Of a stretch of 32,000 bases of DNA, positions 11,031-24,361 are shown in pieces. Under the pieces are notes generated by a model that searched no databases, was not told the DNA's origin, and worked only from the letters and a program-made list of their open reading frames with translations. Position 1 is the first letter of the stretch; every line of letters starts with the position of its first letter. The stretch is taken from NCBI GenBank assembly GCA_019977735.1, contig AP025018.1, positions 4,746,580 to 4,778,579 of the forward strand, in the 5' to 3' direction. A program made the position numbers and the translations under genes. The DNA comes from Calothrix sp. PCC 7716 (GTDB lineage Bacteria > Cyanobacteriota > Cyanobacteriia > Cyanobacteriales > Nostocaceae).

Positions 11031-11261
11031 TTATGAATTGTCCTCCTTATGTTTATTGGTGGGGGGATGCGGCTGATTTTGTTGAACATATTCCCTTACA
11101 AACTCAATAATTGCTTCGTTCATGTTTTTGCCATTTAAAGCGCAGGCTGCTTTAAATTGCTCTCGAAGAGACCTGTCGGGAAAAGTAATTTTTAATGTTG
11201 CTGCTGGCTCAGGTTTTTTCGTGTCTGACACTGGGATGTTTGATACTAATGGGTTATACAT
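11031..11261 (-). CDS. ribbon-helix-helix protein (ParG/CopG/antitoxin-like)
   Basis: 76-aa ORF. A disordered N-terminus, then the RHH pattern TLKITFPDRSLREQFKAACALNGKNMNEAIIEFVREYV. Confidence 0.65.
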   Translation of the reverse strand: MYNPLVSNIPVSDTKKPEPAATLKITFPDRSLREQFKAACALNGKNMNEAIIEFVREYVQQNQPHPPTNKHKEDNS

Positions 11262-11729
11262 CCCAAATTATCCACCTTTTATTAGGTCTTTCCTGAAAAT
11301 ATGGCATATGGGATGAATATCCCGTTTGCATTAAACATCCCTTATGCTGTATTATAGCTATGTAAGATTAATTTCACTCAAAAATCTTACGTTGACTAAA
11401 AAGCAACACAAAGCGTGTGTTTTCTTCGTATGCCAAAAATCGCCTTAATCCTATTTTTAGTAAGGATTAGGCGTATTCCATCAGAGTAATTGGAGGAAAT
11501 AATATTGATACAACCGCGATTGGCACCAAATGCTCCAAAATACTCCAGAAACACCTGTGGGCAATGATGAGGGCGTATCTGAAAACTAGTTAAAGGTGCT
11601 TGCTCTCTTGCAATCAAAAAGGCAAGGACTTTTTAGAATTCGTTTCTGGCAGTTTTCATACACAATCTCAAAAATGTTGAAGATTTATTAACTTTCAAGA
11701 CAACTAATATTTTACGAGCGTAGAAATTT

Positions 11730-12323
11730 ATGAATAATCTACCGATAAACAGCCTTCCATCAAAAAGGATGGCGCCACGTGACTTCCTGCGTAACCTACT
11801 AATTGGGCACAATCTACAGGAAACTGAGTATCTCAGGCAAGAAATGGAACGAGGACACAAAACACTGTGTGCGAAAGTTCTCTCTTGTTTGCTGGGAGTA
11901 AGTATGTCAACGATTCGATGTGGATGGGGCACATTAGATTTTGAAACAATGCCTGAATACTACAAGCTCGTTTTAGGATACATAAGTACTGCGAAAATAG
12001 ATTTGCTACACGCAAGTAACATAAAAAGCGGCGCCTACAAGCCAGAAACCATCGAAGCGCAAGAATTTATCGAATACGCGCTCTCACTAAGTAATCTATT
12101 CGGTGATGAAAGAGATATAAGACTTTCAAAAAATGGTTTTTTCCACGAGTGCGCGCGGGCACTAGCTTCTTCGACAGGATTCGATTACAAAACAGTAGTG
12201 TTATGGGGTAATGACATTCGTTTCCATAAAATGCCGCGCGAACATAGGCGTACTTTATATTACGCAAAATTAGCAATTCAAACATCGATGAGCCAGCAGC
12301 CTAAACAGTTAGTTGCTGCATAA
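11730..12323 (+). CDS. hypothetical protein with an internally duplicated HTH-like module
   Basis: 197-aa ORF. Two similar segments, CAKVLSCLLGVSMSTIRCGWGTLDFETMPEYY and CARALASSTGFDYKTVVLWGNDIRFHKMPREH. Confidence 0.5.
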   Translation: MNNLPINSLPSKRMAPRDFLRNLLIGHNLQETEYLRQEMERGHKTLCAKVLSCLLGVSMSTIRCGWGTLDFETMPEYYKLVLGYISTAKIDLLHASNIKSGAYKPETIEAQEFIEYALSLSNLFGDERDIRLSKNGFFHECARALASSTGFDYKTVVLWGNDIRFHKMPREHRRTLYYAKLAIQTSMSQQPKQLVAA

Positions 12324-12641
12324 AGATAGTCTAGGTTCGCACTTTTGAATGATACTTGGGAAAAAAGTTGAAATTTGAACAAAAAACTAGACCCTAGTCA
12401 TACTATTTTTACGTCTCTGGTCTATGTACTATCTAACAAAAATACTTCAAAATGGAGATTAGACTTTTAGGATTTTAGGGTAACGACATACCAAACTAGC
12501 TCACGCGAAAATCGAACACCAACTCTTATATAAGCGAGCGGGTTTATACATTAATTTCTTTCAAATACCACAATTCCCGTTCAAAGTGTCAATAAACACG
12601 GATATCTTTGTACACCTAAGTAAATACATGGTATCGATATT

Positions 12642-12890
12642 ATGTACACAGCGGCGCCATTTACACCAACTTTCGACTACTCTAAATTTGAAAATCAGCA
12701 TTTAGCAGCAAAAGCTTCAGAGGCTCTTGGTAACTTCAAAAGTTTTGTTCGTCAAACCTTCGACGGTATCATTCAAATAGGACAGGAATTACAAGAAATC
12801 GAAGAACAATGCCTTACTCTAGGTAAAAACGGCAAGAAGGTTTTTAAGCAATGGCTCGACAGCAACCAGTTTGGTAAAGCAATACAGTAA
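12642..12890 (+). pseudogene. 5' fragment of a DUF3102-like gene interrupted by the 6.7-kb element
   Basis: The ORF reads ...IIQIGQELQEIEEQCLTLGKNGKKVFKQWLDSNQFG. It then runs into element DNA at 12875 (KAIQ*) and stops. The sequence continues in frame at 19581 (ASAYIARSAMQLHNWF...). Confidence 0.8.
12868..12874. repeat. left copy of the 7-bp junction direct repeat AGTTTGG
   Basis: Identical heptamer at 19574-19580. The two copies flank the element exactly where the host reading frame breaks and resumes. Confidence 0.8.
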
Positions 12891-12979
12891 AGATTTGTTA
12901 AACAACAACAACAGCAATCGATTTTTTATATACCGTTAAATTATAAGCTTATACAAATAAAAATTTTATACGACGTAAA

Positions 12980-14065
12980 ATGCGGTTAGTACTTCAGAAG
13001 GGTATTGACCCTTATACAGGCGCGACAGTTTGGGTAATGCTTGACTCTGATTACCAAGTCATAGAACCGATTCAGCGATACTTAACTTACCTGTGTAGTT
13101 TAAAATCTCCGAACACGGTGGAGACTTACGCCTATGGACTAAAAGCTTGGTGGGAATTTTTATTAAGCAAGAACTTAGATTGGCGTTCAATAGAGCTTTC
13201 TGATTTACAAGATTTTGTTTACTGGTTAAGAGTTGGAGAGACTGGCGATATTATTTCAATGCAACTAGTTCAAGCAAAAAGGTCAGAGCGTAGTATTAAT
13301 TTGACAATTACTGCTGTAACGACTTTTTATGAATACCATGTAGCTTGTAAAAATATTGACCCAGTAGAATTTATCGCTATTTCAGCATGTAAAGGAGCAG
13401 TTCGTAAAGGTTTACTAACAGGTATTGGAAAATCCAAGCCCAGAAGGGAGATGTTAGTTAAACTGAGAGAACCAAAAAAGTTTCCAGGTTGTTTAAGCGA
13501 TAAAGAAATTGAAATATTAGTGAATGCTTGCAACAGATTAAGAGATAAACTTATCATTCTAATGCTTAATAGCACAGGAATGAGAAAAGGAGAACTATTA
13601 GGGTTGTGCCATTCGGATGTGGGGGATAGAGGCAATAATATAGTTCAAGTAGTTAAAAGGCTAAACAACCCCAATTTAGCAAGAGCAAAGGGTAATTCAA
13701 GACCTATCCCTGTGCCATTAGAATTGCTAAAAATGTACAATGATTATCTAATTTATGAATACCCTGATATTATATCAGATTACGTATTTGTAAATATTTG
13801 GGAAGGTGAGATAGGAGCGCCAATGAACCCCAAAGTGTTGAATACAATGTTTAGCAGGTTAACAAAAAAGACAGGAATAAAAGTGTACCCACATCTTTTT
13901 CGTCATACATATGCAACTCGTTTAATTAAAGCGGGCTATTCAGCAGATAGAGTGAAGTACTTATTAGGACATGCATCAATTCAAACAACTTTAGATATTT
14001 ATAATCATGTGATTGAAGAAGATAAATTAATCTCAGTAATAGAAAGAGAAGAGAGGATAGAATGA
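12980..14065 (+). CDS. tyrosine recombinase, Tn554 TnpA-like
   Basis: 361 aa. Catalytic signatures: R in NSTGMRKGELLGL, HxxR in HLFRHTYATRL, H...Y in LLGHASIQTTLDIYNHV. The N-terminal SAM-like domain (TVETYAYGLKAWWEFLLSKNLDW) is as I recall for Tn554 TnpA. Confidence 0.9.
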   Translation: MRLVLQKGIDPYTGATVWVMLDSDYQVIEPIQRYLTYLCSLKSPNTVETYAYGLKAWWEFLLSKNLDWRSIELSDLQDFVYWLRVGETGDIISMQLVQAKRSERSINLTITAVTTFYEYHVACKNIDPVEFIAISACKGAVRKGLLTGIGKSKPRREMLVKLREPKKFPGCLSDKEIEILVNACNRLRDKLIILMLNSTGMRKGELLGLCHSDVGDRGNNIVQVVKRLNNPNLARAKGNSRPIPVPLELLKMYNDYLIYEYPDIISDYVFVNIWEGEIGAPMNPKVLNTMFSRLTKKTGIKVYPHLFRHTYATRLIKAGYSADRVKYLLGHASIQTTLDIYNHVIEEDKLISVIEREERIE

Positions 14066-15519
14066 ATCAAATAGATTTTCTAGATAACTTTCATAGCATA
14101 CTGCCAAGTCCAGAAAGTAAACAGATTTTTGAGAATCCTTTACTAAAACAAGATATATGGTCAACAAAGGATTTGGGGCTGAAAATAAGAGAGCATAACA
14201 GATGTTTGACATTGAACTTTAATGAGTTATCTCAAGATTGGTTCAAATTTTTAGTAAAACTTTATGTTTTATTAAGAGCATTACGTAAAATATCTCTTGG
14301 AACAATTCAGAATGAGATACAGAAATTTAGGCAATTTTCCAGATTTATGAAGCAGTATTCTATCAATAACATTGAAGAAATTAATGAGCAATTATTTGAT
14401 TCGTTTAATGAATATTTGCTTTTTCAAAAGCTGAAAAAGAATACAATTACGGGTTATTACATCGCGCTTAGTAATTTCTTTAACATATGTCGTGGTGAGG
14501 GGTGGCTTGAAGTTAATACTTTCTGGTTTCAAGGTCGTTTAATACGTTTTCGCCCCAATAATGACGAAGTAGACTATATTCCTGAAGATGTTTGGAATCA
14601 ATTAGACCAAAACCTTAATAAATTACCAGAACCTATACAACGAATGGTTTTACTAATTAGAACGACAGGTATGAGAATAGGGGAGCTACTTAACTTACCT
14701 TTTGATTGCTTGCGAAGAAGAGGTAAACAATGGTGTTTACGATTGACTACTGAAAAGTATGATATAGAGGACGAATTACCTATTTGTCCAGAATTAGTCA
14801 GTGTTATAAGAGAACAGCAAAACTACATAAAAGAGAATCTTGGTGCTATTTACGATAAATTATTTTGCAGTAATGGTGGTCATGGGATATCAGATTTTTA
14901 TCCGAAACCAAAAGTGATGTCTGGAGAAAGTTTTAATAAATGGTTGAACAGATTATCAGGTGATTGTAATATTTGTGCGAAAGGAAAAACAGAGCCTTGG
15001 AAATTTAAATCTCATCAATTTCGTAAAACAGTCGCAACTATAATGACGAATAATGGTATTAGGGATTTAATAATTCAAAAATATCTTAGACACCGTTCTC
15101 TTGACATGCAAAATTATTATAAACATTTGCTAAAACAAGTGTTAGAAGCAGAATATGAAGAGTTAATGCGGGAGAAAAAATATATTGATATTTCAGGTCA
15201 TATAGTAGCTACTTACAAACCTGATAATCCAGTGACTGAATTGATGCGTCGTAAAATGCACTCGATTACAACTATATATGGAGAATGTCATCGTCCGATT
15301 TTAAAGAATCCTTGTGAAATTGTAAATGCTTGCCTACACTGTCAGCATCTACATATTTCCATTGATGATTTACCTTTTCTTAAGCAAGACTTAAAGCGAG
15401 TAGAGTCCGAATTAGAAATTGCAAAAAAATTAGGAATGATTAGACAACAGCAAGGGTTGGAATCCGATTACAAACGTTTAATAACTCTAATACAATTGTT
15501 GGAAACTAGTAATGATTAA
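14062..15519 (+). CDS. tyrosine recombinase, Tn554 TnpB-like (paralog 1)
   Basis: 485 aa. The start overlaps the upstream stop (ATGA). R in RTTGMRIGELLNL, HxxR in HQFRKTVATIM, H...Y in YLRHRSLDMQNYYKHL. C-terminal Cys/His motif IYGECHRPILKNPCEIVNACLHCQH. Confidence 0.85.
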   Translation: MNQIDFLDNFHSILPSPESKQIFENPLLKQDIWSTKDLGLKIREHNRCLTLNFNELSQDWFKFLVKLYVLLRALRKISLGTIQNEIQKFRQFSRFMKQYSINNIEEINEQLFDSFNEYLLFQKLKKNTITGYYIALSNFFNICRGEGWLEVNTFWFQGRLIRFRPNNDEVDYIPEDVWNQLDQNLNKLPEPIQRMVLLIRTTGMRIGELLNLPFDCLRRRGKQWCLRLTTEKYDIEDELPICPELVSVIREQQNYIKENLGAIYDKLFCSNGGHGISDFYPKPKVMSGESFNKWLNRLSGDCNICAKGKTEPWKFKSHQFRKTVATIMTNNGIRDLIIQKYLRHRSLDMQNYYKHLLKQVLEAEYEELMREKKYIDISGHIVATYKPDNPVTELMRRKMHSITTIYGECHRPILKNPCEIVNACLHCQHLHISIDDLPFLKQDLKRVESELEIAKKLGMIRQQQGLESDYKRLITLIQLLETSND

Positions 15520-17347
15520 TATTAACTGGAAGACCGATTATCATCGTGAATTTACATGTCCTAATTGTGGCCAAAAAAGCTTAGTATTACAAGGCACTAC
15601 TAACTATAAACGGAGATTTCAATGTAAAAACTGTAAAAAATATGTCAACAATTCTTGCAATGTAAAAATAGATATTAATACAGTTCAATCAAAAATAAAT
15701 TGGCGTACAGACTATAAAGTTGGTGAGTTTGCTTGTCCTAATCCTAATTGCCATGATCGAAATGTTAGACTTAGTGGCAAAGACAGTCATTCTGGTAAAA
15801 AATTTTTTCAATGTAAAACTTGTTTAGCCACGGCAGTAGAGTCGAATGGCTTAACATCTGCCAATTTAAGTAAATATACTAACACAAAACCTAACATAAA
15901 ACCTTTCAATTTTAATGATGCTCAATGGGATTTAAGAGCAATTAATCTTTTGTACAACGAACGCACAAAAGTCACAATTATAAATTTTGATTTAATTAAA
16001 GTTGATTGGTTAAAATTGTTTGTAAAAAAATATATTTATCAGCAGTGTCAAAGAGAAAGCTCTCATGATACAATCAATAGAAAATTCTATGTTCTTTTCA
16101 AATTTTCTGAATATTTATTTAGACGGTGTGTTTTAACAATCGAGCAAATCAGTCGTGATATAATTCGAGACTTTGTTTATAACTGTACTAGAAGCAATGG
16201 AGAAATACGTAGAAACTTAGGCGCATTAAAAGATTTTTTTACAACAGGAAATTTGCATAATTGGTTTAAAATCAGTCAAGATATAGTCAGAAATGAAGAT
16301 TATCCAAAAAAGAAAATAAAGAATCCGGACCCAATTTCTGACACTGTTAGATTACAAATAGAAAGTAATTTAAAGAAATTACCTGAGCCAATTGCAAGAA
16401 TGTGGGTAGTAGCATTTTTCACAGCAGTAAGACCCGAGGAGTTAGCCTTTTTAAAAAAAGATTGTTTAATTCAAGATGGCGGTCATTGGAAAATTATTTG
16501 GCACAGAAATAAAACCAAAGATAAACATGAAGTACCTGTAACAAGAATTATTGCAAAGGTAATTCAAGAGCAGGTGGAATATATTGAAGAACTTTGGGGT
16601 AATGATTGGCCATATTTATTCTGTCATTATCAAGGCATATCAAAAAATGACATAAATCATCCGAAAATTCAACCTGTAAAAAAAGTAATATCTTCAAACA
16701 ATAACCCACTCAAACGAGCTATTTGTTGTTTAATTATAACAGAAAATATTCGAGATGATAATGGTGAACTAGCAACATTTAGTCCTAGTTTAGTACGACC
16801 AACTCGTTTAACCCAACTTTTTGAGCAGGGGCATGACCTTGCTGTTGTTAGCACATGGGCAGGACATAAACAGTTAGCAACAACAAGCCTTCACTATACA
16901 AAAGTCAGTTGCGAGTTAATTGAGAAAGAAGCAGGACATATTCAAAAAGTTCTAGTTAACACTGATGGTAAGCCTTTACATTATGAATCAATGCCTAAAA
17001 CTTTTTGGGAGAATCCTCGCGCTCATGAATTAAGTTTACCAGCCGACCATATCAACACTCCAATTTATGGTTATTGTGGTTTACCATTGAATGAAGATTG
17101 CAATAAGTTTCGTGCTTGTTATACGTGTCCCTGTTTTGTTCCAATACCTGAAAAATTAACCTTGTATATTACAAATCGTGATCAATTAAGAGCAAAAGAA
17201 TCAAGAGCTAGGCTGAACGGGCATGATGTATTAGTTGAACAATATGGACGGCAAGCCGACCAATTAGATAAAATTATTGCTATTTTAACAGGAGGTGACT
17301 ATGAACAAGGAATCAATAAGAGCAGCCAGGATAAAAACCTTAACTGA
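15512..17347 (+). CDS. tyrosine recombinase, TnpB-like (paralog 2) with N-terminal tandem zinc ribbons
   Basis: 611 aa. 8-nt overlap with the upstream gene. Two INW(K/R)TDY...CxxC...CxxC modules. R in FTAVRPEELAFL, H...Y in WAGHKQLATTSLHYTKV. The HxxR box is atypical (LVRPTRLTQLF). C-terminal IYGYCGLPLNEDCNKFRACYTCPC. Confidence 0.8.
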   Translation: MININWKTDYHREFTCPNCGQKSLVLQGTTNYKRRFQCKNCKKYVNNSCNVKIDINTVQSKINWRTDYKVGEFACPNPNCHDRNVRLSGKDSHSGKKFFQCKTCLATAVESNGLTSANLSKYTNTKPNIKPFNFNDAQWDLRAINLLYNERTKVTIINFDLIKVDWLKLFVKKYIYQQCQRESSHDTINRKFYVLFKFSEYLFRRCVLTIEQISRDIIRDFVYNCTRSNGEIRRNLGALKDFFTTGNLHNWFKISQDIVRNEDYPKKKIKNPDPISDTVRLQIESNLKKLPEPIARMWVVAFFTAVRPEELAFLKKDCLIQDGGHWKIIWHRNKTKDKHEVPVTRIIAKVIQEQVEYIEELWGNDWPYLFCHYQGISKNDINHPKIQPVKKVISSNNNPLKRAICCLIITENIRDDNGELATFSPSLVRPTRLTQLFEQGHDLAVVSTWAGHKQLATTSLHYTKVSCELIEKEAGHIQKVLVNTDGKPLHYESMPKTFWENPRAHELSLPADHINTPIYGYCGLPLNEDCNKFRACYTCPCFVPIPEKLTLYITNRDQLRAKESRARLNGHDVLVEQYGRQADQLDKIIAILTGGDYEQGINKSSQDKNLN

Positions 17348-18158
17348 AACACAATTAATAAGAAAACAAGAGACTTTACAAAAAGTTTATACAGCAATCG
17401 AGCGTTTGCAAAAAAACGGTGCAAAAATTAACTTTCAAACTATTGCCAAAGAAGCGAACGTTAGTGTTCCATATTTGTATAAATACCCGGAATTAAAAGC
17501 ACATATAGCTCAATTACGTAACCAACAATCATCAATGTCATCAAGCACGACAGTACAACCCCCTGTTACTGCTAAAACCCACTCTCAAATAGTTGAGCGT
17601 TTGAAAAAACGTATACATGAATTAGAAGCGGATATGAGCGAGATTAAGCGAAAAAATGAAGCATTAGCAGGGCAAGTTTATAGAGTACATTCCTTGCAAG
17701 AGCAAGTTGAACGTCAAAGAGATATAATAGAAACCTTAGAAAATCGTTTAAAATCAGCCAATCAACAAGTAAGTGAAAGTAAAGTTATTCCTCTAAATAA
17801 AAAATCAGTGGTTATAAGTGAGCGTATATTAGGTGAACTGAATCAAATAGGAATAGAACTAAACAGTAACTTAACTAATCTGATTAAAGCTGCTACAGAA
17901 TCAGAGATTTTAGCAGCTATTGAATATTATAAATATGAACAAGAACGAATAGATATTGAAAATCCTGGTGGGTGGTTAGCGCGTGCAATAAAAGGTCGTT
18001 GGAAGAAACCTGATAAATCACAACAAACCTCAGAGCCTGCAAAAGTACCAAAACAATCTGAAATATTTTCATCATCTACTCAAGTAGGTAGAGAATTTGT
18101 ATCTCTAGAAGAACTTACGAATATTAGTACTATATTTGGCGATAAATCAGATGACTAA
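17301..18158 (+). CDS. TnpC/DUF6262-like HTH protein fused to coiled-coil and C-terminal domains
   Basis: The ORF track starts at GTG 17295, but ATG 17301 is preceded by GGAGG (17291-17295). The N-terminal about 75 aa (LQKVYTAIERLQKNGAKINFQTIAKEANVSVPYLYKYPELKAHIAQLR) resemble the small third protein of Tn554-type elements (from memory). Then a coiled coil, and a C-terminal ENPGGWLARAIKGRWKKP motif. Confidence 0.6.
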   Translation: MNKESIRAARIKTLTETQLIRKQETLQKVYTAIERLQKNGAKINFQTIAKEANVSVPYLYKYPELKAHIAQLRNQQSSMSSSTTVQPPVTAKTHSQIVERLKKRIHELEADMSEIKRKNEALAGQVYRVHSLQEQVERQRDIIETLENRLKSANQQVSESKVIPLNKKSVVISERILGELNQIGIELNSNLTNLIKAATESEILAAIEYYKYEQERIDIENPGGWLARAIKGRWKKPDKSQQTSEPAKVPKQSEIFSSSTQVGREFVSLEELTNISTIFGDKSDD

Positions 18159-19464
18159 TAAGATACCTCCACAAAATCTTGAAGCAGAGGAAAGCATACT
18201 TGGTGGTTGTTTACTAGACCCCAATGCTATTGGCAGAATTGCTGATATTTTAATCCCAGAAGCCTTTTATTTTTCTGCTCACCAACAAATTTATAAAGCA
18301 ATGTTAGAATTATATAATCATTCATTACCAACTGATTTATTAACAGTTACTTCTTGGCTGTCTGACCACAAATTATTAACTAAAGTTGGCGGCAGAAATC
18401 AGCTAAGTAAATTAGTTGAGAGTACAGTATCAGCCGTAAATATAGACCATATAGCAAACTTAGTTGTGGAGCAATATCAACGTCGGCAGTTAATTAGTGT
18501 CGGTTATGAAATTGTCGAATTAGGTTATGATGTCACATTTAAAATTCAAGAAGTTTTAGAGCAGTCCGAAAGTAAAATTTTTAATTTAACTTCAAACAAA
18601 CAAGATAAATTTAAACCACAATTAATAAGTGATTGCCTTCGTGAAGTATTTCAAGAGTTAAAACAAGGATATACTCCAGGTTATCCGACTGGATTAAAAG
18701 ACTTAGATGGATTAATTGGAGGATTAAATAAACAAGATTTAATTGTAATTGCTGCAAGAGCATCAATGGGTAAAACTTGGTTGGGTTGTTATTTTGCAAA
18801 TTATATTGCCATACAGCAACAGTTACCTGTTGTTTTCTTCTCTGCTGAAATGTCCTCTTCACAATTAACCAAAAGATTTTTAGCCATACATTCAGGTATT
18901 GATTCTAGCAGGCTAATTCGTAACCAAATATATCAGGACGAGATAGATAGCTTAAAACAAGCTTTGTGTACTTTGCTCAGATTACCTATTGTCATCGATG
19001 ATACACCTGCACTTTATCAAAATCCCGGACGTATATGTTCTGTACTGCGAAGAATTAAGTCAGAGCGAGGTAATTTAGGCTTAGTCGTTATGGATTATAT
19101 TCAAAAACTTGGTGATAGAGCAGTAAGTAATAGAGCGCAAGCAGTTGGCAAATTCTCCGGCGCATTTAAAGACATTGCTAAAGAATTTGACGTTCCATTT
19201 ATAGCTTTAGCTCAAATTAATAGAGGTGTAGAAAGCCAAACAAATAAACGCCCAACGATGGCGGATATAAAAGACTCAGGTGATATAGAACAAGATATGG
19301 ATATTGGATTACTTCTTTATCGAGATGAGTATTACAATCCAGATACACAAGATAAAGGAGTAATGGAGATTAACGTTGCTAAAAATCGCAATGGCGCCAC
19401 AGGAACTTGTAAAGTCTCATTAGACCCAATTATTGGAACTTTTCGCGATATCACAGTTTCTTAA
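18151..19464 (+). CDS. dnaB: DnaB-family replicative DNA helicase
   Basis: DnaB N-terminal signature PPQNLEAEESILGGCLLD. Walker A AARASMGKTW, Walker B LVVMDYIQ. AQINRGVESQTNKRPTMADIKDSGDIEQDMDIGLLLYRDEYY matches the conserved DnaB C-terminal block. ATG 18151 overlaps the upstream stop (ATGACTAA); the ORF track starts at TTG 18136. No intein. Confidence 0.9.
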   Translation: MTNKIPPQNLEAEESILGGCLLDPNAIGRIADILIPEAFYFSAHQQIYKAMLELYNHSLPTDLLTVTSWLSDHKLLTKVGGRNQLSKLVESTVSAVNIDHIANLVVEQYQRRQLISVGYEIVELGYDVTFKIQEVLEQSESKIFNLTSNKQDKFKPQLISDCLREVFQELKQGYTPGYPTGLKDLDGLIGGLNKQDLIVIAARASMGKTWLGCYFANYIAIQQQLPVVFFSAEMSSSQLTKRFLAIHSGIDSSRLIRNQIYQDEIDSLKQALCTLLRLPIVIDDTPALYQNPGRICSVLRRIKSERGNLGLVVMDYIQKLGDRAVSNRAQAVGKFSGAFKDIAKEFDVPFIALAQINRGVESQTNKRPTMADIKDSGDIEQDMDIGLLLYRDEYYNPDTQDKGVMEINVAKNRNGATGTCKVSLDPIIGTFRDITVS

Positions 19465-19573
19465 GACCGACCAAATTGCTACCAAAGTCCAAAAGCTTAA
19501 ATATCGTTGTATAAAGTGTTAACAACAATCAATGCCTTATGTTGCAAACGTTGTATACGTTGTGTATTACATA

Positions 19574-19580
19574 AGTTTGG
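19574..19580. repeat. right copy of the 7-bp junction direct repeat AGTTTGG
   Basis: Identical to 12868-12874. Immediately followed by CGCCAGTG, which completes the host TGGCGCCA palindrome. Confidence 0.8.
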
Positions 19581-20796
19581 CGCCAGTGCTTATATTGCAA
19601 GAAGTGCGATGCAGTTGCACAACTGGTTTAAAGATTTAAATCCGCGATTACAACGATTGATTCGTTCAAACGTTCAAGACTGGAAGGTTTCAGCATTACG
19701 CCATCTGAAGCACTTAACTGATGATGTAATTGAAGCCGCAGTTACTACAGGAAGGAAAACAGCATCGCAACTCAAACAACTGTCTGGTAAAGTTCATCAA
19801 AAAATGGCGCCATCTGAAGTTACTTCGGGCGATAACAACTTGAGTTTTCAGAACAAGGCATCAGAAGAATCAGAGGAATTTGATCTACCAGAAATTGTTT
19901 CTACACCAGAGTTGGCGCTAAATAGTGTAACTCCTACTCCTACACTCCTGTTGACGCGAGGAGTGCGGATAGTTGTGCAAAATGAATCAACTGGCTGGAA
20001 TGGCGCCAGTGGAATAATTACGACTGTTGGCAATAATGATGATTTTTGGGTTTTATTAGACCACACCATAGCTCAAGGGATGGTAACGAAACATTTACTC
20101 AAATCTCACCAATTAAGATTGGAATCTAAAATATCTACTCCCACAGCTTCAGCACAAGTGTTGACCACTGTTGATATTGACAAAATTAAGGCAGAAACTA
20201 TCAGACAGTATCTGCTAGAACATGCAGAAGAACAACAGGGAAAATATTTAGAAATTAAAGGTGCCGCTCTTGTTGCTGCCGAGAAAGAAATTGCATCGTT
20301 TGAAAAACATGCTCAATGTATGACCGATAAAGTGTCTAAGCTAGTTGAGCAGTTGGAGGCATCTGAGCAAGAAATCGCGCGTTTACACTCTTTGCACGCA
20401 GAAAATCAACAGTTACAGCAACGAGTCACAGAATTAGAAAATGCGCTCCTAAAAGCATCAGAAGACAGTTGGGGTAACACTTTCAATACTCAAGCTGCCA
20501 AAGTTATGAACTCGGAAATTGAGAAAAAAGTGGCACCGCTAATGTCTGAGGTTGAACGATTACAGAACTTGGTACAGAAAAAAGATGCCCAATTAGCTCA
20601 AATGCAGCAAATTCCGGCGCCTGATAGTGAAGAAGTGATTTCCGAGTTTGGAGAAATTGGCGAGCAGTTAGGTTGGCATGGCTGGCGCCGTTCTGGGTAC
20701 AGAGACAAAAACGGTACGCTGCATAAAGGCATCAACGCAATTAGCGCATTTGTATCTGATTTAGCGCGGGAGTATCACCAGGAAACGGCATTTTAA
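19574..20796 (+). pseudogene. 3' fragment of the interrupted DUF3102-like / long coiled-coil (KfrA-like?) gene
   Basis: From FGASAYIARSAMQLHNWFKDLNPRLQRLI onward the sequence continues the 12642 fragment in frame. The C-terminal half is an extended coiled coil (EQLEASEQEIARLHSLHAENQQLQQRVTELENALLKA). The first 22 codons of tracked ORF 19507.. are element-end DNA. Confidence 0.75.
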
Positions 20797-21183
20797 ATTA
20801 ACGAATTCATTAACATATACTGTGCGTATCGTTTTTTCTGTAAAACGATTGGTTGATGTCATTGCGTTTACTCTGCCATAACTGTAATTGTGCTTCTCGT
20901 AAAACAACTGTTGGAGATTTAGCTTGCAAAATCCACGAACTTCCCTCGTTTAATACTTCAACCATTTGTACTATTCAACTTAATTAAGCCTTGGTTACAA
21001 GTTTTTAATATTTCTAAGTTATCCGAGGGCTTTTTTAAACTTCAAATGCTTGTAAATAATTTAACTCGTTCAATCTTTCAAAACCTCAATATCCCTTATT
21101 TATATTTTTCCTCTGCCTAGAGTGACAAAAGAGGGATAAGCTTGCAGGGTCAAAATAAAGTGAAAGTCTGCCGTTGCTGTGTT

Positions 21184-22890
21184 TTAGTTATACAAATTAA
21201 CTAAATTGTATATTGCGTGGAGTAAATTATCTGGTTCAACAGGTTTAGGTATGTGCGTTTGAAAACCCATTTCTAACGCCCGTTGTCTGTCATATTCACT
21301 AGCGTAAGCAGTTATTGCAATCGCGGGAATTTGTCCGCCTTGTTTGGCTGGTAATGACCGAATTTGACGAATCAGTTCATATCCATCTTCTTCTGGCATT
21401 CCAATGTCACTTACTACTATGTCTGGCGGGTGTGCAACCAGAGATGAAAATGCATCCGGCACTGAGGTTGCAGAATACACAGAAGCTCCATGTTCTTCCA
21501 AGATATAAATTATTATATTAAGGTTATCGGCTTGATCATCTACCACAAGTACCCGCACGCCGTTTAAATCGAGGTTATTATTATCCTGTCTACTATTTTG
21601 GGTTTTTGCCAAAGTCGGTATGAGTGGTAATCTAATAGTAAAAGTCGCTCCTTGTCCTTCACCAGCACTCTCTGCCTCAATTGTACCACCATGTAGTTCA
21701 ACTAAACGGCGGACAATAGCCAAGCCTAAGCCTAACCCACCAGTACTTCTAGTTGTGCTGCTGTTTTCTTGACAAAAGTAATCAAATATATAAGGTAAGA
21801 AGTTACAATTTATACCTTTGCCTGTATCGCTAACTTGAATTTGAGCATAGCCTTCAACTCTTTCGAGCTTAATTGTTACCTGTCCATGATTTTGTGTAAA
21901 TTTAATGCTATTAGTAAGTAAATTCCAAATCACTTGCTGTAAACGGTTGGGATCACCTAAGCATGATTCGATATTAGTGTCAAAAACAGTATTAATTTCA
22001 ATTGACTTAGCTTGAGCGGCAAGACCTACAGTGTCAATAGCTGCAGTGATTATTGTTTTCAAATCGACTACAACAGGTTGCAATCTAATCTTACCGCGCA
22101 AAATTCGCGAAATATCCAGCAAGTCATCTATAAGTTGCGCCTGTAAAGAAGCATTACGTTCAATAGTTTCTAAAGCTTTCTGTATTACACTTTGATCAAG
22201 TTTACGACTACGTAAAATTTTCGCCCAGCCCAAAATAGGATTAAGGGGTGTTCGTAATTCATGGGACACAATAGCCAGAAATTCATTCTTAAGACGGTTG
22301 GCTGTTTGTGCTTCTTCTAAGAGTTGTTTGAGCCGTTCATTTTCTGCATGTTTACGTACAGTGATATCTCTGAGTGAAACTAGATAGGCGGGTTCTCCTT
22401 GCCATTGGATTTGGGCTACTCGCATTTGCGCGATTACTATTTCTCCAGCACGGTTACAAACATCCACTTCTACATCATTACCATTAATCAAGGGAAAGCC
22501 AAATAACTGACCTAAAAGTTCTTCTTCTTGGCGCCCAAATAAGATCGTCCCTGCCGGATTCAAAAAGCGGATAATTCCCTGCTGGTTAACTACTACCATG
22601 CCATCAACATTGTTGGCAATTAAATTTTGTAACTGTGCTTGAGTTTGCAAAAGTGCTGCTTCTGTCTGGCTTTTACGAGCAATTTCCTGTTGTAATTGCC
22701 GATTACTTTCGATTAATTCTGTTGTTTGCTTAAGAAGCTGTTCCTCGCGGTTAGTACCTAAATCAGAATCGATTTTCTGTTGCTGTAGCGACTCAACGGA
22801 TAATTTTTCTAATCTTATTGCTTGCTTAATCGCTTCTGGCAGTTGTGTTTTTTGTTTTGGAAGCAAGTAATCAGTTGCTCCTGCTTTCAT
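21184..22890 (-). CDS. hybrid sensor histidine kinase (PAS-HisKA-HATPase-REC) that starts with a receiver-domain tail fragment
   Basis: 568 aa. H-box LAIVSHELRTPLNPILGW. HATPase G-boxes DTGKGI and GGLGLGLAIVRRLVELHGGTIEAES. C-terminal receiver VLVVDDQADN...VVSDIGMPEEDGYELIRQIR...KPV. The first residues KAGATDYLLPK are the end of another receiver domain. Confidence 0.85.
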   Translation of the reverse strand: MKAGATDYLLPKQKTQLPEAIKQAIRLEKLSVESLQQQKIDSDLGTNREEQLLKQTTELIESNRQLQQEIARKSQTEAALLQTQAQLQNLIANNVDGMVVVNQQGIIRFLNPAGTILFGRQEEELLGQLFGFPLINGNDVEVDVCNRAGEIVIAQMRVAQIQWQGEPAYLVSLRDITVRKHAENERLKQLLEEAQTANRLKNEFLAIVSHELRTPLNPILGWAKILRSRKLDQSVIQKALETIERNASLQAQLIDDLLDISRILRGKIRLQPVVVDLKTIITAAIDTVGLAAQAKSIEINTVFDTNIESCLGDPNRLQQVIWNLLTNSIKFTQNHGQVTIKLERVEGYAQIQVSDTGKGINCNFLPYIFDYFCQENSSTTRSTGGLGLGLAIVRRLVELHGGTIEAESAGEGQGATFTIRLPLIPTLAKTQNSRQDNNNLDLNGVRVLVVDDQADNLNIIIYILEEHGASVYSATSVPDAFSSLVAHPPDIVVSDIGMPEEDGYELIRQIRSLPAKQGGQIPAIAITAYASEYDRQRALEMGFQTHIPKPVEPDNLLHAIYNLVNLYN

Positions 22891-24361
22891 ACAGTTTACG
22901 GCAGGTTGCTAAACCCATTCCCGTACCTTCGTACTGACTATTACTATGCAACCGAAAGAACGGTGTAAAAATTTGCTCCTGGTTTTCTTCGTCAAAACCA
23001 ATGCCATTATCTTCCACAGTAATTTCATATTGCAAATCTTTATATAGGCTTTGGTAAATTTTTATAATGGGTGCTGCTTCCAATTTATGAAATTTTAGGG
23101 CATTGGAAATCAAGTTCTGAAATAGCTGACGTATTTGAGAACAATCGCATTCAATTATCGGTAGTTCTCCAACATGAATACATGCCTGGTTTTCCTTAAT
23201 TTCTACTTCTAAATCTGACAAAACTTCTTGTAAAACTGTATTTAAATTAACTGAAACAAACGACTGCGCTTGAGTTGTCACTCGTGAGTAGGTGAGTAAA
23301 CTTTTAATTAAGCTTCGCATCCGCATCCCAACGTTTTGCATCCTTTCTAAGTATCCGCGTCCTTTAACGTCAAGTAGTAAACCATACTCCTGTTCTAATT
23401 GCTTACTAAGCATTTCGATTTTATGTAAAGGTGCGATTAAGTCGTGAGAAACAACATGGGCAAATTCCTCTAAATCGTTATTGCTACGTTCCAGTTCTTT
23501 AACAAGTTTCTGCAACTTTACTTCTGTTTGCTTACGCTGATCAATATCTTGAATCTGGGAAATAAAGTAAAGTGGTTTCCCATTACGATTGCGTACTAAG
23601 GAAACACTTAACAAAATCCAGACGCTGTGTCCCTGTTTATGGAAATAGCGCTTTTCCATTTGGTAAGTGCGAATTTTTCCTGCTAACAATTGACGCACGT
23701 AATCCAAGTCAGTGTTCAAATCATCAGGATGGGTAATATCTTGAAAGGTAATTTGTAATAATTCCGCTTCCGAATAGCCAATAATTTCACATAAAGAACG
23801 ATTGACTTTCAACCACTTTCCATCTGGTGAGACTAATGCCTTACCTATTGCTGCATCATGAAAAGCAAGGCTAAATACTTCTTCATTTTGGCTAACTTCT
23901 TCTTCTAGTTTCTTTTGTTTGGTAATATCTCTACCTTCGGCGATAAGTAATACTACCTGTCCTGCTTCGTTTTTTACAGGGCGTAGAGAAAAATCCATTG
24001 TAGTAGTGTACGACCCTTTCCCTAACACATCTACCTCATACCGAACGAGTTTTCCTTGAGCTGCGGTAGCAATTGCAACTTTTAGCTGTTGTTGAGTTTG
24101 AGGTGAAATTGTCCACCATCTTGCTTCCCAAAACGGTTTTTGGATAACATTTGAGTGAGCTATATCACCAAGAGATAACGCAGTTTGGTTAGCATCTAGA
24201 AGCATACCATTGGGTTTAACTAGCACAACAAACTGAAAACTCTGCTCAAAAATGGTACGAAATTGCCTTTCAATTTCGATAATAGTTTGAGAAAATTCTT
24301 GCTCCATAGAAATATTTTTTATGTTTTTATCATTATTGAGAAATTTCGCGTCATTACTCAT
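22871..24361 (-). CDS. multi-PAS sensor histidine kinase with truncated HATPase domain
   Basis: 496 aa. PAS-type blocks. H-box FAHVVSHDLIAPLHKI. N-box LISNALKF, G1 DNGIGF, G2 GTGMGLATCRKL. The ORF then terminates (YESRSN*) about 35 aa short of a normal HATPase_c end. Confidence 0.8.
   Translation of the reverse strand: MSNDAKFLNNDKNIKNISMEQEFSQTIIEIERQFRTIFEQSFQFVVLVKPNGMLLDANQTALSLGDIAHSNVIQKPFWEARWWTISPQTQQQLKVAIATAAQGKLVRYEVDVLGKGSYTTTMDFSLRPVKNEAGQVVLLIAEGRDITKQKKLEEEVSQNEEVFSLAFHDAAIGKALVSPDGKWLKVNRSLCEIIGYSEAELLQITFQDITHPDDLNTDLDYVRQLLAGKIRTYQMEKRYFHKQGHSVWILLSVSLVRNRNGKPLYFISQIQDIDQRKQTEVKLQKLVKELERSNNDLEEFAHVVSHDLIAPLHKIEMLSKQLEQEYGLLLDVKGRGYLERMQNVGMRMRSLIKSLLTYSRVTTQAQSFVSVNLNTVLQEVLSDLEVEIKENQACIHVGELPIIECDCSQIRQLFQNLISNALKFHKLEAAPIIKIYQSLYKDLQYEITVEDNGIGFDEENQEQIFTPFFRLHSNSQYEGTGMGLATCRKLYESRSN

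What the first reader, a model, noticed from the sequence alone, without database searches (positions are those of the whole stretch)
12642..20796. Host gene split by the element rejoins in frame across a 7-bp direct repeat; reconstructed attP shows dyad symmetry
The left fragment ends ...KQWLDSNQFG (ttt gg|t at 12870-12875). The right fragment resumes ttt gg|c gcc agt = FGASAYIARSAMQLHNWF at 19576 onward.

Deleting 12875-19580 (6706 bp) restores one ORF of about 483 codons, with a DUF3102-like N-terminus (IGQELQEIEEQ...WLDSNQFGAS.YIARSAMQL) and a long coiled coil. AGTTTGG is present at both junctions (12868-12874, 19574-19580).

Joining the element ends gives TGTATTAC-ata-AGTTTGG-taaa-GCAATACA, that is 8-bp inverted arms (7/8 match) around a 14-bp centre. 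That is what a tyrosine-recombinase core site would look like.

Subterminal motifs are also inverted between the arms. On the left: TTATACAA (12949), TATACGACG (12967) and TATATACC (12927). On the right: CGTTGTATA (19505, 19549) and CGTTGTGTA (19558).
Basis: seen in the sequence. Interest (0 to 1): 0.8.

Follow-up and report, generated by a model that had tools for sequence, protein, structure and literature searches.

The report
Tn554-like transposon splitting a Calothrix gene
A 6.7-kb mobile element related to the staphylococcal transposon Tn554, but carrying three recombinases and its own DnaB-type helicase gene, has inserted precisely into a conserved codon pair of a Calothrix gene; it belongs to a widespread cyanobacterial element family I could not find described in the literature I searched.

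Summary
Removing window 12875-19580 restores a 482-aa ORF. A metagenomic allele (L001, 87-88% nt identity, same neighbourhood) has exactly the predicted uninterrupted junction.

The insert is a 6,700-bp element (12875-19574). It encodes a Tn554 TnpA-like recombinase, two TnpB-like recombinases, a TnpC-like DUF6262 protein with a C-terminal extension, and a DnaB helicase. All three recombinases keep the catalytic Arg..Arg..His..Tyr.

More than 50 cyanobacterial loci share this architecture and the same conserved ends. Each end is a 12-bp imperfect inverted repeat that abuts a 6-bp junction sequence, with GTTGTRTA and AACAACAA subterminal motifs.

The "7-bp direct repeat" is a 6-mer (GTTTGG) plus one coincidental base. 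It is not a target duplication. In 6 of 14 related insertions the left and right 6-mers differ. In one genome the right 6-mer of one copy equals the left 6-mer of a 99.96%-identical sister copy, as described for Tn554 and SE elements.

Calothrix PCC 7716 holds a second copy with identical recombinases, so movement was recent.

Verdict: a real feature whose interpretation is largely right; a new variant of a known kind (Tn554-related, GInt-like architecture). "DUF3102-like" is not supported.

The parts
12642..12874 (+). 5' fragment of the interrupted host gene (77 codons plus 2 nt). The ORF as it now stands runs on into the element to a stop at 12888-12890.
   Evidence: 88% nt identity to the uninterrupted allele in L001
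12869..12874 (+). Left junction 6-mer GTTTGG (L6), here part of codons Phe-Gly of the target
   Evidence: a 6-bp unit restores the target ORF in 12 of 12 insertions
12875..12886 (+). Left terminal inverted repeat TAAAGCAATACA (first base of the element is 12875)
   Evidence: Conserved in relatives; several contigs begin at or within a few nt of this point. 9/12 complementary to the right terminus.
12900..12913 (+). AAACAACAACAACA subterminal motif of the left arm, 26 nt inside the junction
   Evidence: Present at the same distance from the junction in nearly all loci; conserved block in A5
12967..12975 (+). TATACGACG, the inverted copy of the right-arm CGTYGTATA motif, just upstream of the YR1 start codon
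   Evidence: Conserved TATACRACGTAA(A)AATG block in A5; TAYACRAC occurs only twice on the + strand of the window
12980..14065 (+). YR1: TnpA-type tyrosine recombinase, 361 aa
   Evidence: Pfam Phage_integrase 5.7e-29; 36% identity to Tn558-type TnpA over 349 aa, E 6e-74; catalytic R, H-x-x-R, H and Y present
14062..15519 (+). YR2: TnpB-type tyrosine recombinase, 485 aa, with a Cys-rich C-terminal extension
   Evidence: Pfam 1.1e-17; 26% identity to TnpB over 481 aa, E 1e-38; catalytic residues present
15512..17347 (+). YR3: second TnpB-type tyrosine recombinase, 611 aa, with N-terminal zinc ribbons
   Evidence: Pfam Phage_integrase 8.3e-11 and Zn_ribbon_IS1595; 25% identity to TnpB over 449 aa, E 2e-23; R307, R429, H452 and Y462 conserved, box-II His replaced by Ser
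17295..18158 (+). TnpC-like protein (DUF6262) with a coiled coil and an extra C-terminal four-helix domain, 285-287 aa
   Evidence: Pfam DUF6262, 43.2 bits against a cutoff of 29; 29% identity to the Tn558-type TnpC, E 2e-13; structure model
18136..19464 (+). DnaB-type replicative helicase, overlapping the end of the preceding gene
   Evidence: Pfam DnaB and DnaB_C; TIGR00665, 461 bits against a cutoff of 385; present after the TnpC-like gene in about two thirds of related loci
19505..19566 (+). Right-arm subterminal motifs: CGTTGTATA (19505), AACAACAA (19521-19528), CGTTGTATA (19549), CGTTGTGTA (19558)
   Evidence: invariant blocks in five relatives
19563..19574 (+). Right terminal inverted repeat TGTATTACATAA (last base of the element is 19574)
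19575..19580 (+). Right junction 6-mer GTTTGG (R6). By analogy with relatives, probably carried in from the donor site.
19581..20796 (+). 3' fragment of the interrupted host gene (reading frame continues from 19576; 405 codons plus stop)
   Evidence: annotated in NCBI as CAL7716_042180

Best explanation
Window 12875-19574 is an intact, recently active site-specific transposon of the Tn554 lineage, in a variant that is widespread in cyanobacteria. Its gene order is a TnpA-like recombinase, two TnpB-like recombinases, a TnpC-like DUF6262 protein, then DnaB.

It is inserted in the chromosome of Calothrix sp. PCC 7716, inside the conserved Phe-Gly codons of a 482-aa gene of unknown function that exists in several copies.

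Proposed mechanism:
- The recombinases bind the two 12-bp imperfect inverted repeats at the element ends.
- The GTTGTRTA and AACAACAA arm motifs probably give extra binding sites and polarity.
- Strands are exchanged across a 6-bp sequence between the joined ends of a circular or junction intermediate (..TGTATTACATAA-GTTTGG-TAAAGCAATACA..) and a 6-bp sequence in the target. Mismatches in the 6 bp are tolerated.
- After insertion, the left 6-mer is the target's own. The right 6-mer is the one carried in, copied from the left flank of the donor site.

Here both 6-mers are GTTTGG, so the split gene can be rejoined exactly.

What is shown: the insertion and its exact boundaries, the empty site, homology to Tn554 TnpA/B/C, conserved ends, unequal 6-mers in relatives, and a second copy in the genome whose three recombinases and TnpC-like protein are identical.

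What is inferred: the circular intermediate, the direction of 6-bp carry-over, which protein binds which motif, and any role of DnaB in replicating or copying out the element.
For: Insertion and empty site.

Protein homology to a Tn558-type transposon (L054), whose third gene is annotated 'DUF6262 family protein':
- YR1 vs TnpA: 36% identity, E 6e-74.
- YR2 vs TnpB: E 1e-38.
- YR3 vs TnpB: E 2e-23.
- TnpC: E 2e-13; locus annotation.

Catalytic R..R..H..Y is invariant in all three recombinases.

Family: 50 cyanobacterial loci share the gene order. Left ends are conserved and so are right ends. The 12-bp terminal inverted repeat has P about 6e-4.

A 6-bp unit restores the target ORF in 12 of 12 insertions. 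L6 differs from R6 in 6 of those 12, and in four of the six the difference is synonymous in the target gene. R6 of L014 (ATATCC) equals L6 of L013, and the two copies are 99.96% identical within one genome.

This genome:
- YR1-3 and the TnpC-like protein each carry two locus tags in PCC 7716.
- The read-level contig L060 equals window 12870-19584 at 100% identity. The two copies therefore share 5 nt on the left and 10 nt on the right, so copy 2 has L6 = xTTTGG (x is not G) and R6 = GTTTGG.

Literature: 6 bp from the donor's left flank ends up at the right junction in SEs and Tn554-related elements (PMC10214605). GInts use 6-nt staggered cuts and produce att-site variants (PMC5385486).
Against: - No circular junction (attP) was found. 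The 6.7-kb stand-alone contigs are collapsed repeats with no terminal overlap, and the metagenome scan gave only attR junctions.
- The flanks of copy 2 were not read. Its 6-mers are inferred from where a de Bruijn contig ends.
- In the window both 6-mers are identical, so this insertion on its own cannot separate carry-over from a shared core or a duplication.
- The direction of carry-over rests on one clear pair (L013/L014).
- Canonical Tn554 has one TnpB and no DnaB, and nothing here tests whether the extra genes take part in movement.
Confidence: 0.8

Rival explanations
1. Classical phage- or ICE-type integration. The element has a fixed attP whose 7-bp core AGTTTGG is identical to a core in attB. 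Exchange happens within that identity, so both junctions always carry the same element-specified core.
For: In the window both junctions carry the same AGTTTGG, and the joined ends have dyad symmetry. The inferred copy-2 junctions (xTTTGG on the left, GTTTGG on the right) would also fit a fixed attP with exchange inside TTTGG.
Against: - 99.96%-identical copies in one genome have different right 6-mers (ATATTA against ATATCC) and different left 6-mers.
- A relative whose TnpC-like protein is 87% identical, with the same termini, carries TACATT on both sides in an unrelated gene.
- The A of the 7-mer is part of the invariant terminus.
- The recombinases belong to the Tn554 TnpA/TnpB type, not to the phage Int type with arm-binding domains.
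Confidence: 0.12
2. A member of the GInt family (genomic islands with three integrases, ginABCD) rather than of the Tn554 lineage.
For: The architecture is the same: three integrase-like genes plus a TnpC-like fourth gene at the 5' end, cargo right after the fourth gene, a short AT-rich 3' end, and site-specific insertion with imperfect flanking repeats (PMC5385486; window).
Against: - The partial GinA/B/C sequences of P. stutzeri DSM 4166 show no significant similarity beyond the box-II motif: GinA vs YR1 E 0.09, GinB vs YR2 E 0.11. TnpA vs YR1 is 6e-74.
- GinC lacks the first catalytic Arg (PMC5385486) and the RHRY motif (PMC10214605), whereas all three window recombinases keep R..R..H..Y.
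- GInt flanking repeats are 10-17 nt.
- YR1's plasmid-borne relatives are TnpA of Firmicute and Actinobacterial Tn554-type elements.
Confidence: 0.1
3. A developmentally excised interruption element of heterocyst-forming cyanobacteria (like the nifD, fdxN and hupL elements). It would be cut out by its recombinase during differentiation to restore the host gene.
For: Calothrix is heterocystous (own knowledge). The element splits an ORF that can be restored exactly, and both fragments are still free of stops and frameshifts.
Against: - The same element family occurs in genera that, to my knowledge, do not form heterocysts: Waterburya, Crocosphaera, Chroococcus, Chamaesiphon, Gloeocapsopsis.
- It is multi-copy and recently transposed.
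- It interrupts many unrelated genes, including the dnaB of a sister element.
- Its recombinases are of the Tn554 type.
Confidence: 0.04
4. A transposon that makes a 7-bp target-site duplication by staggered cuts (DDE-type chemistry).
For: A perfect 7-bp direct repeat flanks the insert in the window.
Against: - No DDE-type transposase domain was detected in any of the five element proteins scanned.
- The unit is 6 bp.
- The left and right 6-mers differ in 6 of 14 related insertions and, by inference, in the second copy in this genome.
Confidence: 0.02

Closest known systems
Tn554 family of site-specific transposons (Tn554, Tn558, Tn559, Tn6674; TnpA, TnpB, TnpC)
   Same: - Homologous proteins in the same order and on the same strand. 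TnpA and YR1 are both 361 aa and 36% identical. YR2 and YR3 are TnpB-type large recombinases with the Cys-rich C-terminal extension. The TnpC-like protein is DUF6262.
- Similar size: the window element is 6.7 kb, and Tn554 itself is about 6.7 kb (from memory).
- Short imperfect terminal inverted repeats.
- 6-bp junction sequences that are not a target duplication, with carry-over of the donor's left 6 bp to the right junction.
- Insertion into specific sites inside genes.

   Different: - Two TnpB paralogs instead of one.
- TnpC is extended by about 150 aa, adding a long coiled coil and a small helical domain.
- A DnaB helicase gene sits where Tn554-type elements carry resistance genes.
- The host phylum is Cyanobacteria. 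Tn554-related elements are tabulated only for Staphylococcus and Enterococcus in PMC10214605 (which notes that the host range has not been formally investigated), and relatives are reported in Actinobacteria in PMC3414803.
- The targets are conserved codons of several different gene families, not one att554 site.
[quoted passage not shown] 2017, PMC5385486)
   Same: - Four-gene recombination module at the 5' end: three integrase-fold genes plus a small TnpC-like gene.
- Cargo follows the fourth gene directly.
- Short AT-rich 3' end.
- Site-specific insertion inside or at the ends of genes.
- Imperfect flanking repeats.
- 6-nt staggered exchange that generates att variants.
   Different: - No significant sequence similarity to the available GinA/B/C segments.
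- GinC lacks the first catalytic Arg (PMC5385486) and the RHRY motif (PMC10214605), whereas all three recombinases here look catalytically competent.
- GInt cargo is 2.5-70 kb; here it is a single gene.
- GInts were not reported from cyanobacteria.
SEs (strand-biased circularizing integrative elements; intA-tfp-intB-srap; PMC10214605)
   Same: [quoted passage not shown]
- A 6-bp 'fingerprint' from the donor's left flank is placed at attR.
- Target specificity, and no conjugation genes.
- Weak NCBIfam hits of YR1 to GmtY and of the TnpC-like protein to the VPA1267 family point the same way.
   Different: - Tfp lacks the RHRY residues, whereas YR2 has them.
- SEs are reported mainly from Gammaproteobacteria.
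- SEs carry no DnaB.
RIT elements (recombinase in trio; RitA, RitB, RitC)
   Same: Three adjacent, overlapping tyrosine recombinase genes on one strand.
   Different: - RIT recombinases are 315-410 aa, belong to their own subfamilies, and have no TnpC-like partner.
- RITs have 34-bp terminal inverted repeats (PMC10214605). Here the inverted repeats are 12 bp, and no long terminal inverted repeat exists.

Membership tests
Tn554-related transposons | TnpA-type tyrosine recombinase (about 360 aa) | tested here: met
   YR1 is 361 aa and 36% identical over 349 aa to the TnpA of a Tn558-type element, E 6e-74. Its plasmid-borne relatives are Tn554-type TnpA.
Tn554-related transposons | TnpB-type large tyrosine recombinase with a C-terminal extension | tested here: met
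   YR2 (E 1e-38) and YR3 (E 2e-23) both align to TnpB through the catalytic domain and the Cys-rich C-terminus. There are two copies rather than one.
Tn554-related transposons | TnpC (DUF6262) encoded downstream of tnpB on the same strand | tested here: met
   Pfam DUF6262, 43.2 bits against a cutoff of 29; 29% identity to TnpC, E 2e-13. The Tn558-type tnpC is itself annotated as DUF6262.
Tn554-related transposons | No target duplication; 6-bp junction sequences, with the donor's left 6 bp carried to the new right junction | tested here: inconclusive
   In the window L6 = R6, which is uninformative. In relatives L6 differs from R6 in 6 of 14 insertions, and R6 of L014 equals L6 of L013. Copy 2 in this genome is inferred to have unequal 6-mers. 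This is consistent with the feature but not shown experimentally.
Tn554-related transposons | Site- and orientation-specific insertion | tested here: inconclusive
   Each sub-lineage sits at the same codons of homologous genes and in one orientation. Close relatives of the window element, however, use different genes.
GInt | ginABCD-type operon (three integrase-fold genes plus a TnpC-like gene) at the 5' end, then cargo, then a short AT-rich 3' end | tested here: met
   Gene order; the 110-bp right end is 34% GC and the 105-bp left end 23% GC.
GInt | Third integrase-fold protein (GinC) lacks catalytic residues | tested here: not met
   R..R..H..Y is invariant in YR1, YR2 and YR3 and across 25 YR3 homologs.
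GInt | Sequence homology to GinA-D | tested here: not met
   Only partial Gin sequences (Fig. S1 of PMC5385486) were available. GinA vs YR1 gives E 0.09 and GinB vs YR2 E 0.11; only the box-II motif matches.
SE (strand-biased circularizing integrative element) | Tfp: a recombinase-fold protein without RHRY, lying between intA and intB | tested here: not met
   YR2 keeps R, H-x-x-R, H and Y.
SE (strand-biased circularizing integrative element) | attL x attR product made without leaving an empty site (copy-out) | not testable with these tools
   This needs PCR or sequencing of junctions. The only relevant fact here is that the presumed donor copy is still in place while a second identical copy exists.
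RIT element | RitA/RitB/RitC trio flanked by terminal inverted repeats of 34 bp or more, with no fourth gene | tested here: not met
   No long terminal inverted repeat; a fourth, TnpC-like gene is present; the protein sizes are 361, 485 and 611 aa.

The most novel reading that the evidence does not exclude
Cyanobacteria harbour a distinct lineage of Tn554-type transposons with two special traits.

1. They encode their own DnaB-type helicase next to an extended TnpC. They would use it to replicate or copy out the element, leaving the donor copy in place.
2. They 'home' into short, highly conserved coding motifs of multi-copy genes that are often themselves mobile-element genes. Examples are methyltransferase motif I, the Dcm GGLDLG motif, box II of tyrosine recombinases, the dnaB of sister elements, four-helix-bundle proteins, and the FG motif here. 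Conservation at the protein level would then guarantee landing sites in new genomes.
Probability: 0.3. Interest if true: 0.7.

Novelty: new variant of a known kind. Interest (0 to 1): 0.5.

Why it matters
The transposition route of Tn554-type, SE and GInt elements is still unresolved; PMC10214605 says so explicitly.

This cyanobacterial lineage offers natural material to address it:
- many recent copies whose junction 6-mers can be read,
- three apparently active recombinases in one operon,
- an element-borne replicative helicase that hints at a replicative step.

It also widens the known host range of Tn554 relatives to a whole phylum. There they seem common and repeatedly disrupt genes at conserved motifs, which matters for genome annotation (split genes, 6-7-kb repeat contigs) and for understanding genome plasticity in large cyanobacterial genomes.

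For the window itself the practical result is an exact element boundary, a reconstructable host gene, and a testable attP sequence.

Tried and rejected
- **Genome scan with the single YR3 sequence:** found nothing. An alignment-based scan was needed, and Calothrix PCC 7716 itself is evidently not in that collection.
- **DUF3102:** not detected by Pfam in the rejoined protein even at E up to 10, nor in any of 16 family members. The host gene stays 'unknown function, coiled coil'.
- **Long terminal inverted or direct repeats:** none.
- **Circular forms:** the 6.7-kb stand-alone contigs L060, L062 and L063 have no terminal k-mer overlap, and they begin and end at the element borders, so they are collapsed repeats. 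The metagenome scan with the right-end pattern returned two attR junctions and no attP.
- **Promoter and terminator scans:** the sites found across the element region, junctions included, do not exceed the shuffled controls.
- **Rfam:** no hit in the window.
- **C-terminal domain of the TnpC-like protein:** no PHROG or PDB sequence match. The AlphaFold model is good locally, but Foldseek against the PDB gives nothing significant; the best hit has E 0.87 and is an HTH regulator.
- **7-bp unit:** using 7 bp breaks the target ORFs in the Waterburya insertions, whereas 6 bp restores all of them.
- **Flanks of the second genomic copy:** could not be retrieved. The look-up returned only the read-level contig.
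- **Wasted literature searches:** two were too broad and gave nothing useful.

Full report
**1. Observation**

AGTTTGG is at 12868-12874 and 19574-19580. The left fragment ends ..KQWLDSNQFG, and the right fragment resumes FGASAYIARSAMQL. Joining 12642-12874 to 19581-20796 gives a 1,449-nt ORF of 482 aa.

The window comes from the chromosome of Calothrix sp. PCC 7716. The right fragment is annotated there as CAL7716_042180 at 100% identity.

**2. The empty site exists**

The rejoined protein finds 105 homologs. Many are full length, for example P0001 (482 aa, 86% identity, 100% coverage). In an alignment of 16 sequences the junction is gap-free and lies between invariant residues F77 and S80.

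P0001 is encoded on metagenome contigs such as L001, whose neighbourhood is syntenic with the window. L001 matches window 11042-12874 and 19571-20834 at 87-88% nt identity, and the two matches overlap by 10 nt. Base by base, attL follows the empty site up to ..CAGTTTGG, and attR follows it from AGTTTGG onward.

**3. Content of the insert**

The insert has five co-oriented, overlapping genes:

| Gene | Coordinates | Size | Identification |
|---|---|---|---|
| YR1 | 12980-14065 | 361 aa | tyrosine recombinase |
| YR2 | 14062-15519 | 485 aa | tyrosine recombinase |
| YR3 | 15512-17347 | 611 aa | tyrosine recombinase with N-terminal zinc ribbons |
| TnpC-like | 17295-18158 | 287 aa | DUF6262 above the Pfam cutoff, plus a coiled coil |
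| DnaB | 18136-19464 | 442 aa | DnaB helicase above the TIGR00665 cutoff |

A plasmid search led to a fexA transposon of the Tn554 family (L054). Its genes are a 361-aa recombinase, a 637-aa recombinase and a 121-aa 'DUF6262 family protein'. Pairwise comparisons:

- YR1 vs TnpA: 36% identity over 349 aa, E 6e-74.
- YR2 vs TnpB: 26%, E 1e-38.
- YR3 vs TnpB: 25%, E 2e-23.
- N-terminal 133 aa of the DUF6262 protein vs TnpC: 29%, E 2e-13.

In a joint alignment the box-I Arg, the box-II Arg, the His and the catalytic Tyr are invariant in all five recombinases. YR3 has Ser in place of the box-II His. YR2 and YR3 share TnpB's Cys-rich C-terminal extension. So the element is a Tn554 relative with two TnpB paralogs, an extended TnpC, and DnaB in the cargo position.

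**4. A large cyanobacterial family with conserved ends**

YR3 has at least 194 homologs, mostly 50-60% identical. A scan of species-representative genomes with an alignment of these gave 50 loci, all cyanobacterial.

tblastn shows the same YR1-YR2-YR3-DUF6262 order throughout. DnaB follows in about two thirds of the loci. Several genomes hold near-identical copies.

*Left ends.* Anchoring on a motif upstream of YR1 shows a conserved left end: flank | T(A/T)A..AATACA.., then about 13-17 nt, then AAACAACAACAACA. The junction lies 26-27 nt before the motif, as in the window. Several short contigs begin at or within a few nt of this point.

*Right ends.* Right ends are conserved too. In five close relatives the blocks GTTGTA.AAA, AACAACAA, GTTGTRTAC and the terminal TGTAT..CATAA are invariant, and the sequences diverge right after ..CATAA.

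*Consequences for the window.* The A at 19574 therefore belongs to the element. The element is 12875-19574 (6,700 bp) and the repeated unit is the 6-mer GTTTGG. The terminal 12-mers, TAAAGCAATACA and TGTATTACATAA, are 9/12 complementary (P about 6e-4). By my reading of the termini printed, they are 10/12 in other sub-lineages. This gives a 12-6-12 core when the ends are joined.

GTTGTRTA occurs three times in 61 bp, while the whole window has 7 against 2.4 expected. The inverted TATACGACG in front of the YR1 start codon is conserved. The motifs at 12927 and 12949 are not well conserved. AACAACAA has the same orientation in both arms, so the arms are not simply symmetric.

**5. Nature of the flanking repeat**

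With a 6-bp unit, 12 of 12 insertions with both ends visible restore an ORF that runs continuously through the junction; with 7 bp several do not.

In 6 of these 12 the left and right 6-mers differ by 1-2 bases. In four of the six the alternatives are synonymous in the target gene. One example is GATTGG/CATTGG in ..YEPAIGTG..; another is CCTGGG/TTTGGG in ..GGLDLGF... That is expected if the incoming 6-mer came from a homologous site elsewhere.

In one Waterburya genome, copies L013 and L014 are 99.96% identical. L013 has ATATCC on the left and ATATTA on the right. L014 has ATAGCA on the left and ATATCC on the right. The right 6-mer of L014 is the left 6-mer of L013. This is the rule reported for SEs and Tn554-related elements, where 6 bp of the donor's left flank is placed at the new attR (PMC10214605). 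It is also compatible with the 6-nt staggered exchange and att variants shown for GInts (PMC5385486).

Two further insertions bring the tally to 14, with unequal 6-mers in 6:
- L061 has TACATT on both sides.
- L062 has CTCAAA on both sides.

**6. Recent activity in this genome**

The exact YR1, YR2 and YR3 sequences each carry two GenBank accessions in PCC 7716 (BDA70047-49 and BDA74720-22). The TnpC-like protein has two locus tags.

A read-level contig from DRR312007 (L060, 6,715 bp) equals window 12870-19584 without a mismatch. I read this contig as the maximal sequence shared by the two copies. On that reading they share 5 nt (TTTGG) to the left of the element and 10 nt (GTTTGGCGCC) to its right. 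Copy 2 would then have xTTTGG (x is not G) on the left and GTTTGG on the right. That excludes a simple duplication. It fits the window copy, or one with the same left flank, being the donor.

This is an inference from assembly behaviour, not a read-out of the locus.

**7. Targets**

Sub-lineages sit in conserved coding motifs. I read these from the flanking translations; no HMM confirmation was obtained because one search failed.
- A methyltransferase-like EPxxGxG motif (L023, L041).
- A cytosine-methyltransferase-like GGLDLGF motif (L027).
- An ..IALKEAxETxYW.. small helical protein (Waterburya L010 group).
- The Phe-Gly of the 482-aa family (window).

A relative whose TnpC-like protein is 87% identical to the window's, and which has the same termini, sits in a tyrosine recombinase gene at the box-II codons ..HDLRHT|F...

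In L052 an element interrupts the dnaB of another element.

Target choice is therefore specific within a sub-lineage but changes between close relatives. How the site is recognised is unexplained. The attB flanks of the window and of L061 show little similarity.

**8. Comparison with known systems**

- **Tn554 lineage.** By sequence the element belongs here. Some genome annotations already label cyanobacterial homologs 'Tn554-related transposase'.
- **GInts.** By architecture it matches GInts: three integrase-fold genes plus a TnpC-like gene, then cargo, then a short AT-rich end. But the available GinA/B/C segments show no significant similarity. GinC lacks catalytic residues, whereas all three recombinases here keep them.
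- **SEs.** SEs share the four-gene logic and the 6-bp fingerprint, but their middle protein lacks RHRY, and they are reported mainly from Gammaproteobacteria.
- **RITs.** RITs differ in protein families, have long inverted repeats and lack a fourth gene.
- **Literature.** I found no paper describing this cyanobacterial type. The nearest is one sentence on a tyrosine-recombinase element in cyanobacterial comM (PMC9881144). The searchable library is limited, so prior description elsewhere cannot be excluded.

**9. Mechanism, and what is shown**

*Shown:* the boundaries, the empty site, the protein homologies, the conserved ends and motifs, the unequal junction 6-mers among relatives, and the second copy in the genome.

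*Inferred:*
- recombinase binding to the 12-bp termini and arm motifs;
- a junction or circular intermediate carrying one 6-mer;
- exchange across 6 bp with tolerance for mismatches;
- carry-over from the donor's left flank to the new right junction.

*Speculative:* that DnaB and the C-terminal domain of the TnpC-like protein serve replication of the intermediate. That domain is a confident small four-helix bundle with no significant structural neighbour.

Exact excision would restore the host gene, because both 6-mers are GTTTGG. Whether excision leaves an empty site is unknown.

**10. Assessment**

An insertion that splits a gene is ordinary in itself. The element type is a new variant of a known kind and gives natural data on an unresolved transposition route.

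Interest 0.5.

Noticed in passing
L052:5587-12161: Nested elements. A more distant relative (one TnpA-like and one TnpB-like gene, a DUF6262 gene and DnaB, in reverse orientation) interrupts the dnaB gene of a three-recombinase element. The dnaB resumes about 5.3 kb downstream.
   Followed up: partly
L041:7345-19784: Two elements of different sub-lineages lie tail to tail, with their dnaB genes facing each other.
   Followed up: no
L059 (Logan contig from DRR312007, 5,790 bp): Calothrix PCC 7716 holds a second, more distant element family: recombinases of 359, 490 and 594 aa plus a 295-aa DUF6262 protein, without DnaB. It assembles as a stand-alone contig and its YR3 carries two locus tags, so it is probably multi-copy. 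One copy (CAL7716_080100) lies a few genes from an intact paralog of the host gene (CAL7716_080180).
   Followed up: partly
window:19507-20796: A TTG-initiated ORF starts inside the element's right end and reads through the junction into the host gene's 3' fragment (429 aa). A truncated or fused C-terminal product could therefore still be made. No convincing promoter was found.
   Followed up: partly
window:12900-12913 and 19521-19528: The AACAACAA(CAACA) motif is conserved in both arms in the same orientation, unlike the inverted TGTAT/ATACA and GTTGTATA motifs. This asymmetry could mark element polarity.
   Followed up: partly
window:15512-15900, compared with L035:2658-3389 and P0106 (875 aa): The N-terminal zinc-ribbon region of YR3 is repeated a variable number of times among relatives. 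Protein lengths range from about 590 to 875 aa.
   Followed up: no
window:7357-12323 and L001:3365-7681: The host gene sits in a small syntenic module that is conserved in L001: a 429-aa ORF, a 266-aa ORF, a 76-aa protein with a weak, sub-threshold ribbon-helix-helix match, and a 197-aa ORF. The host-gene family is multi-copy in Calothrix genomes and also occurs on a plasmid (NIES-4071). The 'host' gene may itself belong to a mobile or plasmid-derived module.
   Followed up: partly
window:6009-6983 and 29250-30716: Other mobile-element genes in the window: a PD-(D/E)XK nuclease family transposase with DUF4351, and an IS66-family transposase. PAS histidine kinases lie at 21184-24361 and 26306-28474.
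   Followed up: no
L005, L006, L007 (Calothrix parasitica NIES-267): Three copies without DnaB share 1.4-2 kb of sequence upstream of YR1, beyond the usual left end. These copies may be nested in, or fused to, another repeated element. An intact homolog of the host gene lies 4.4 kb upstream in L005.
   Followed up: no
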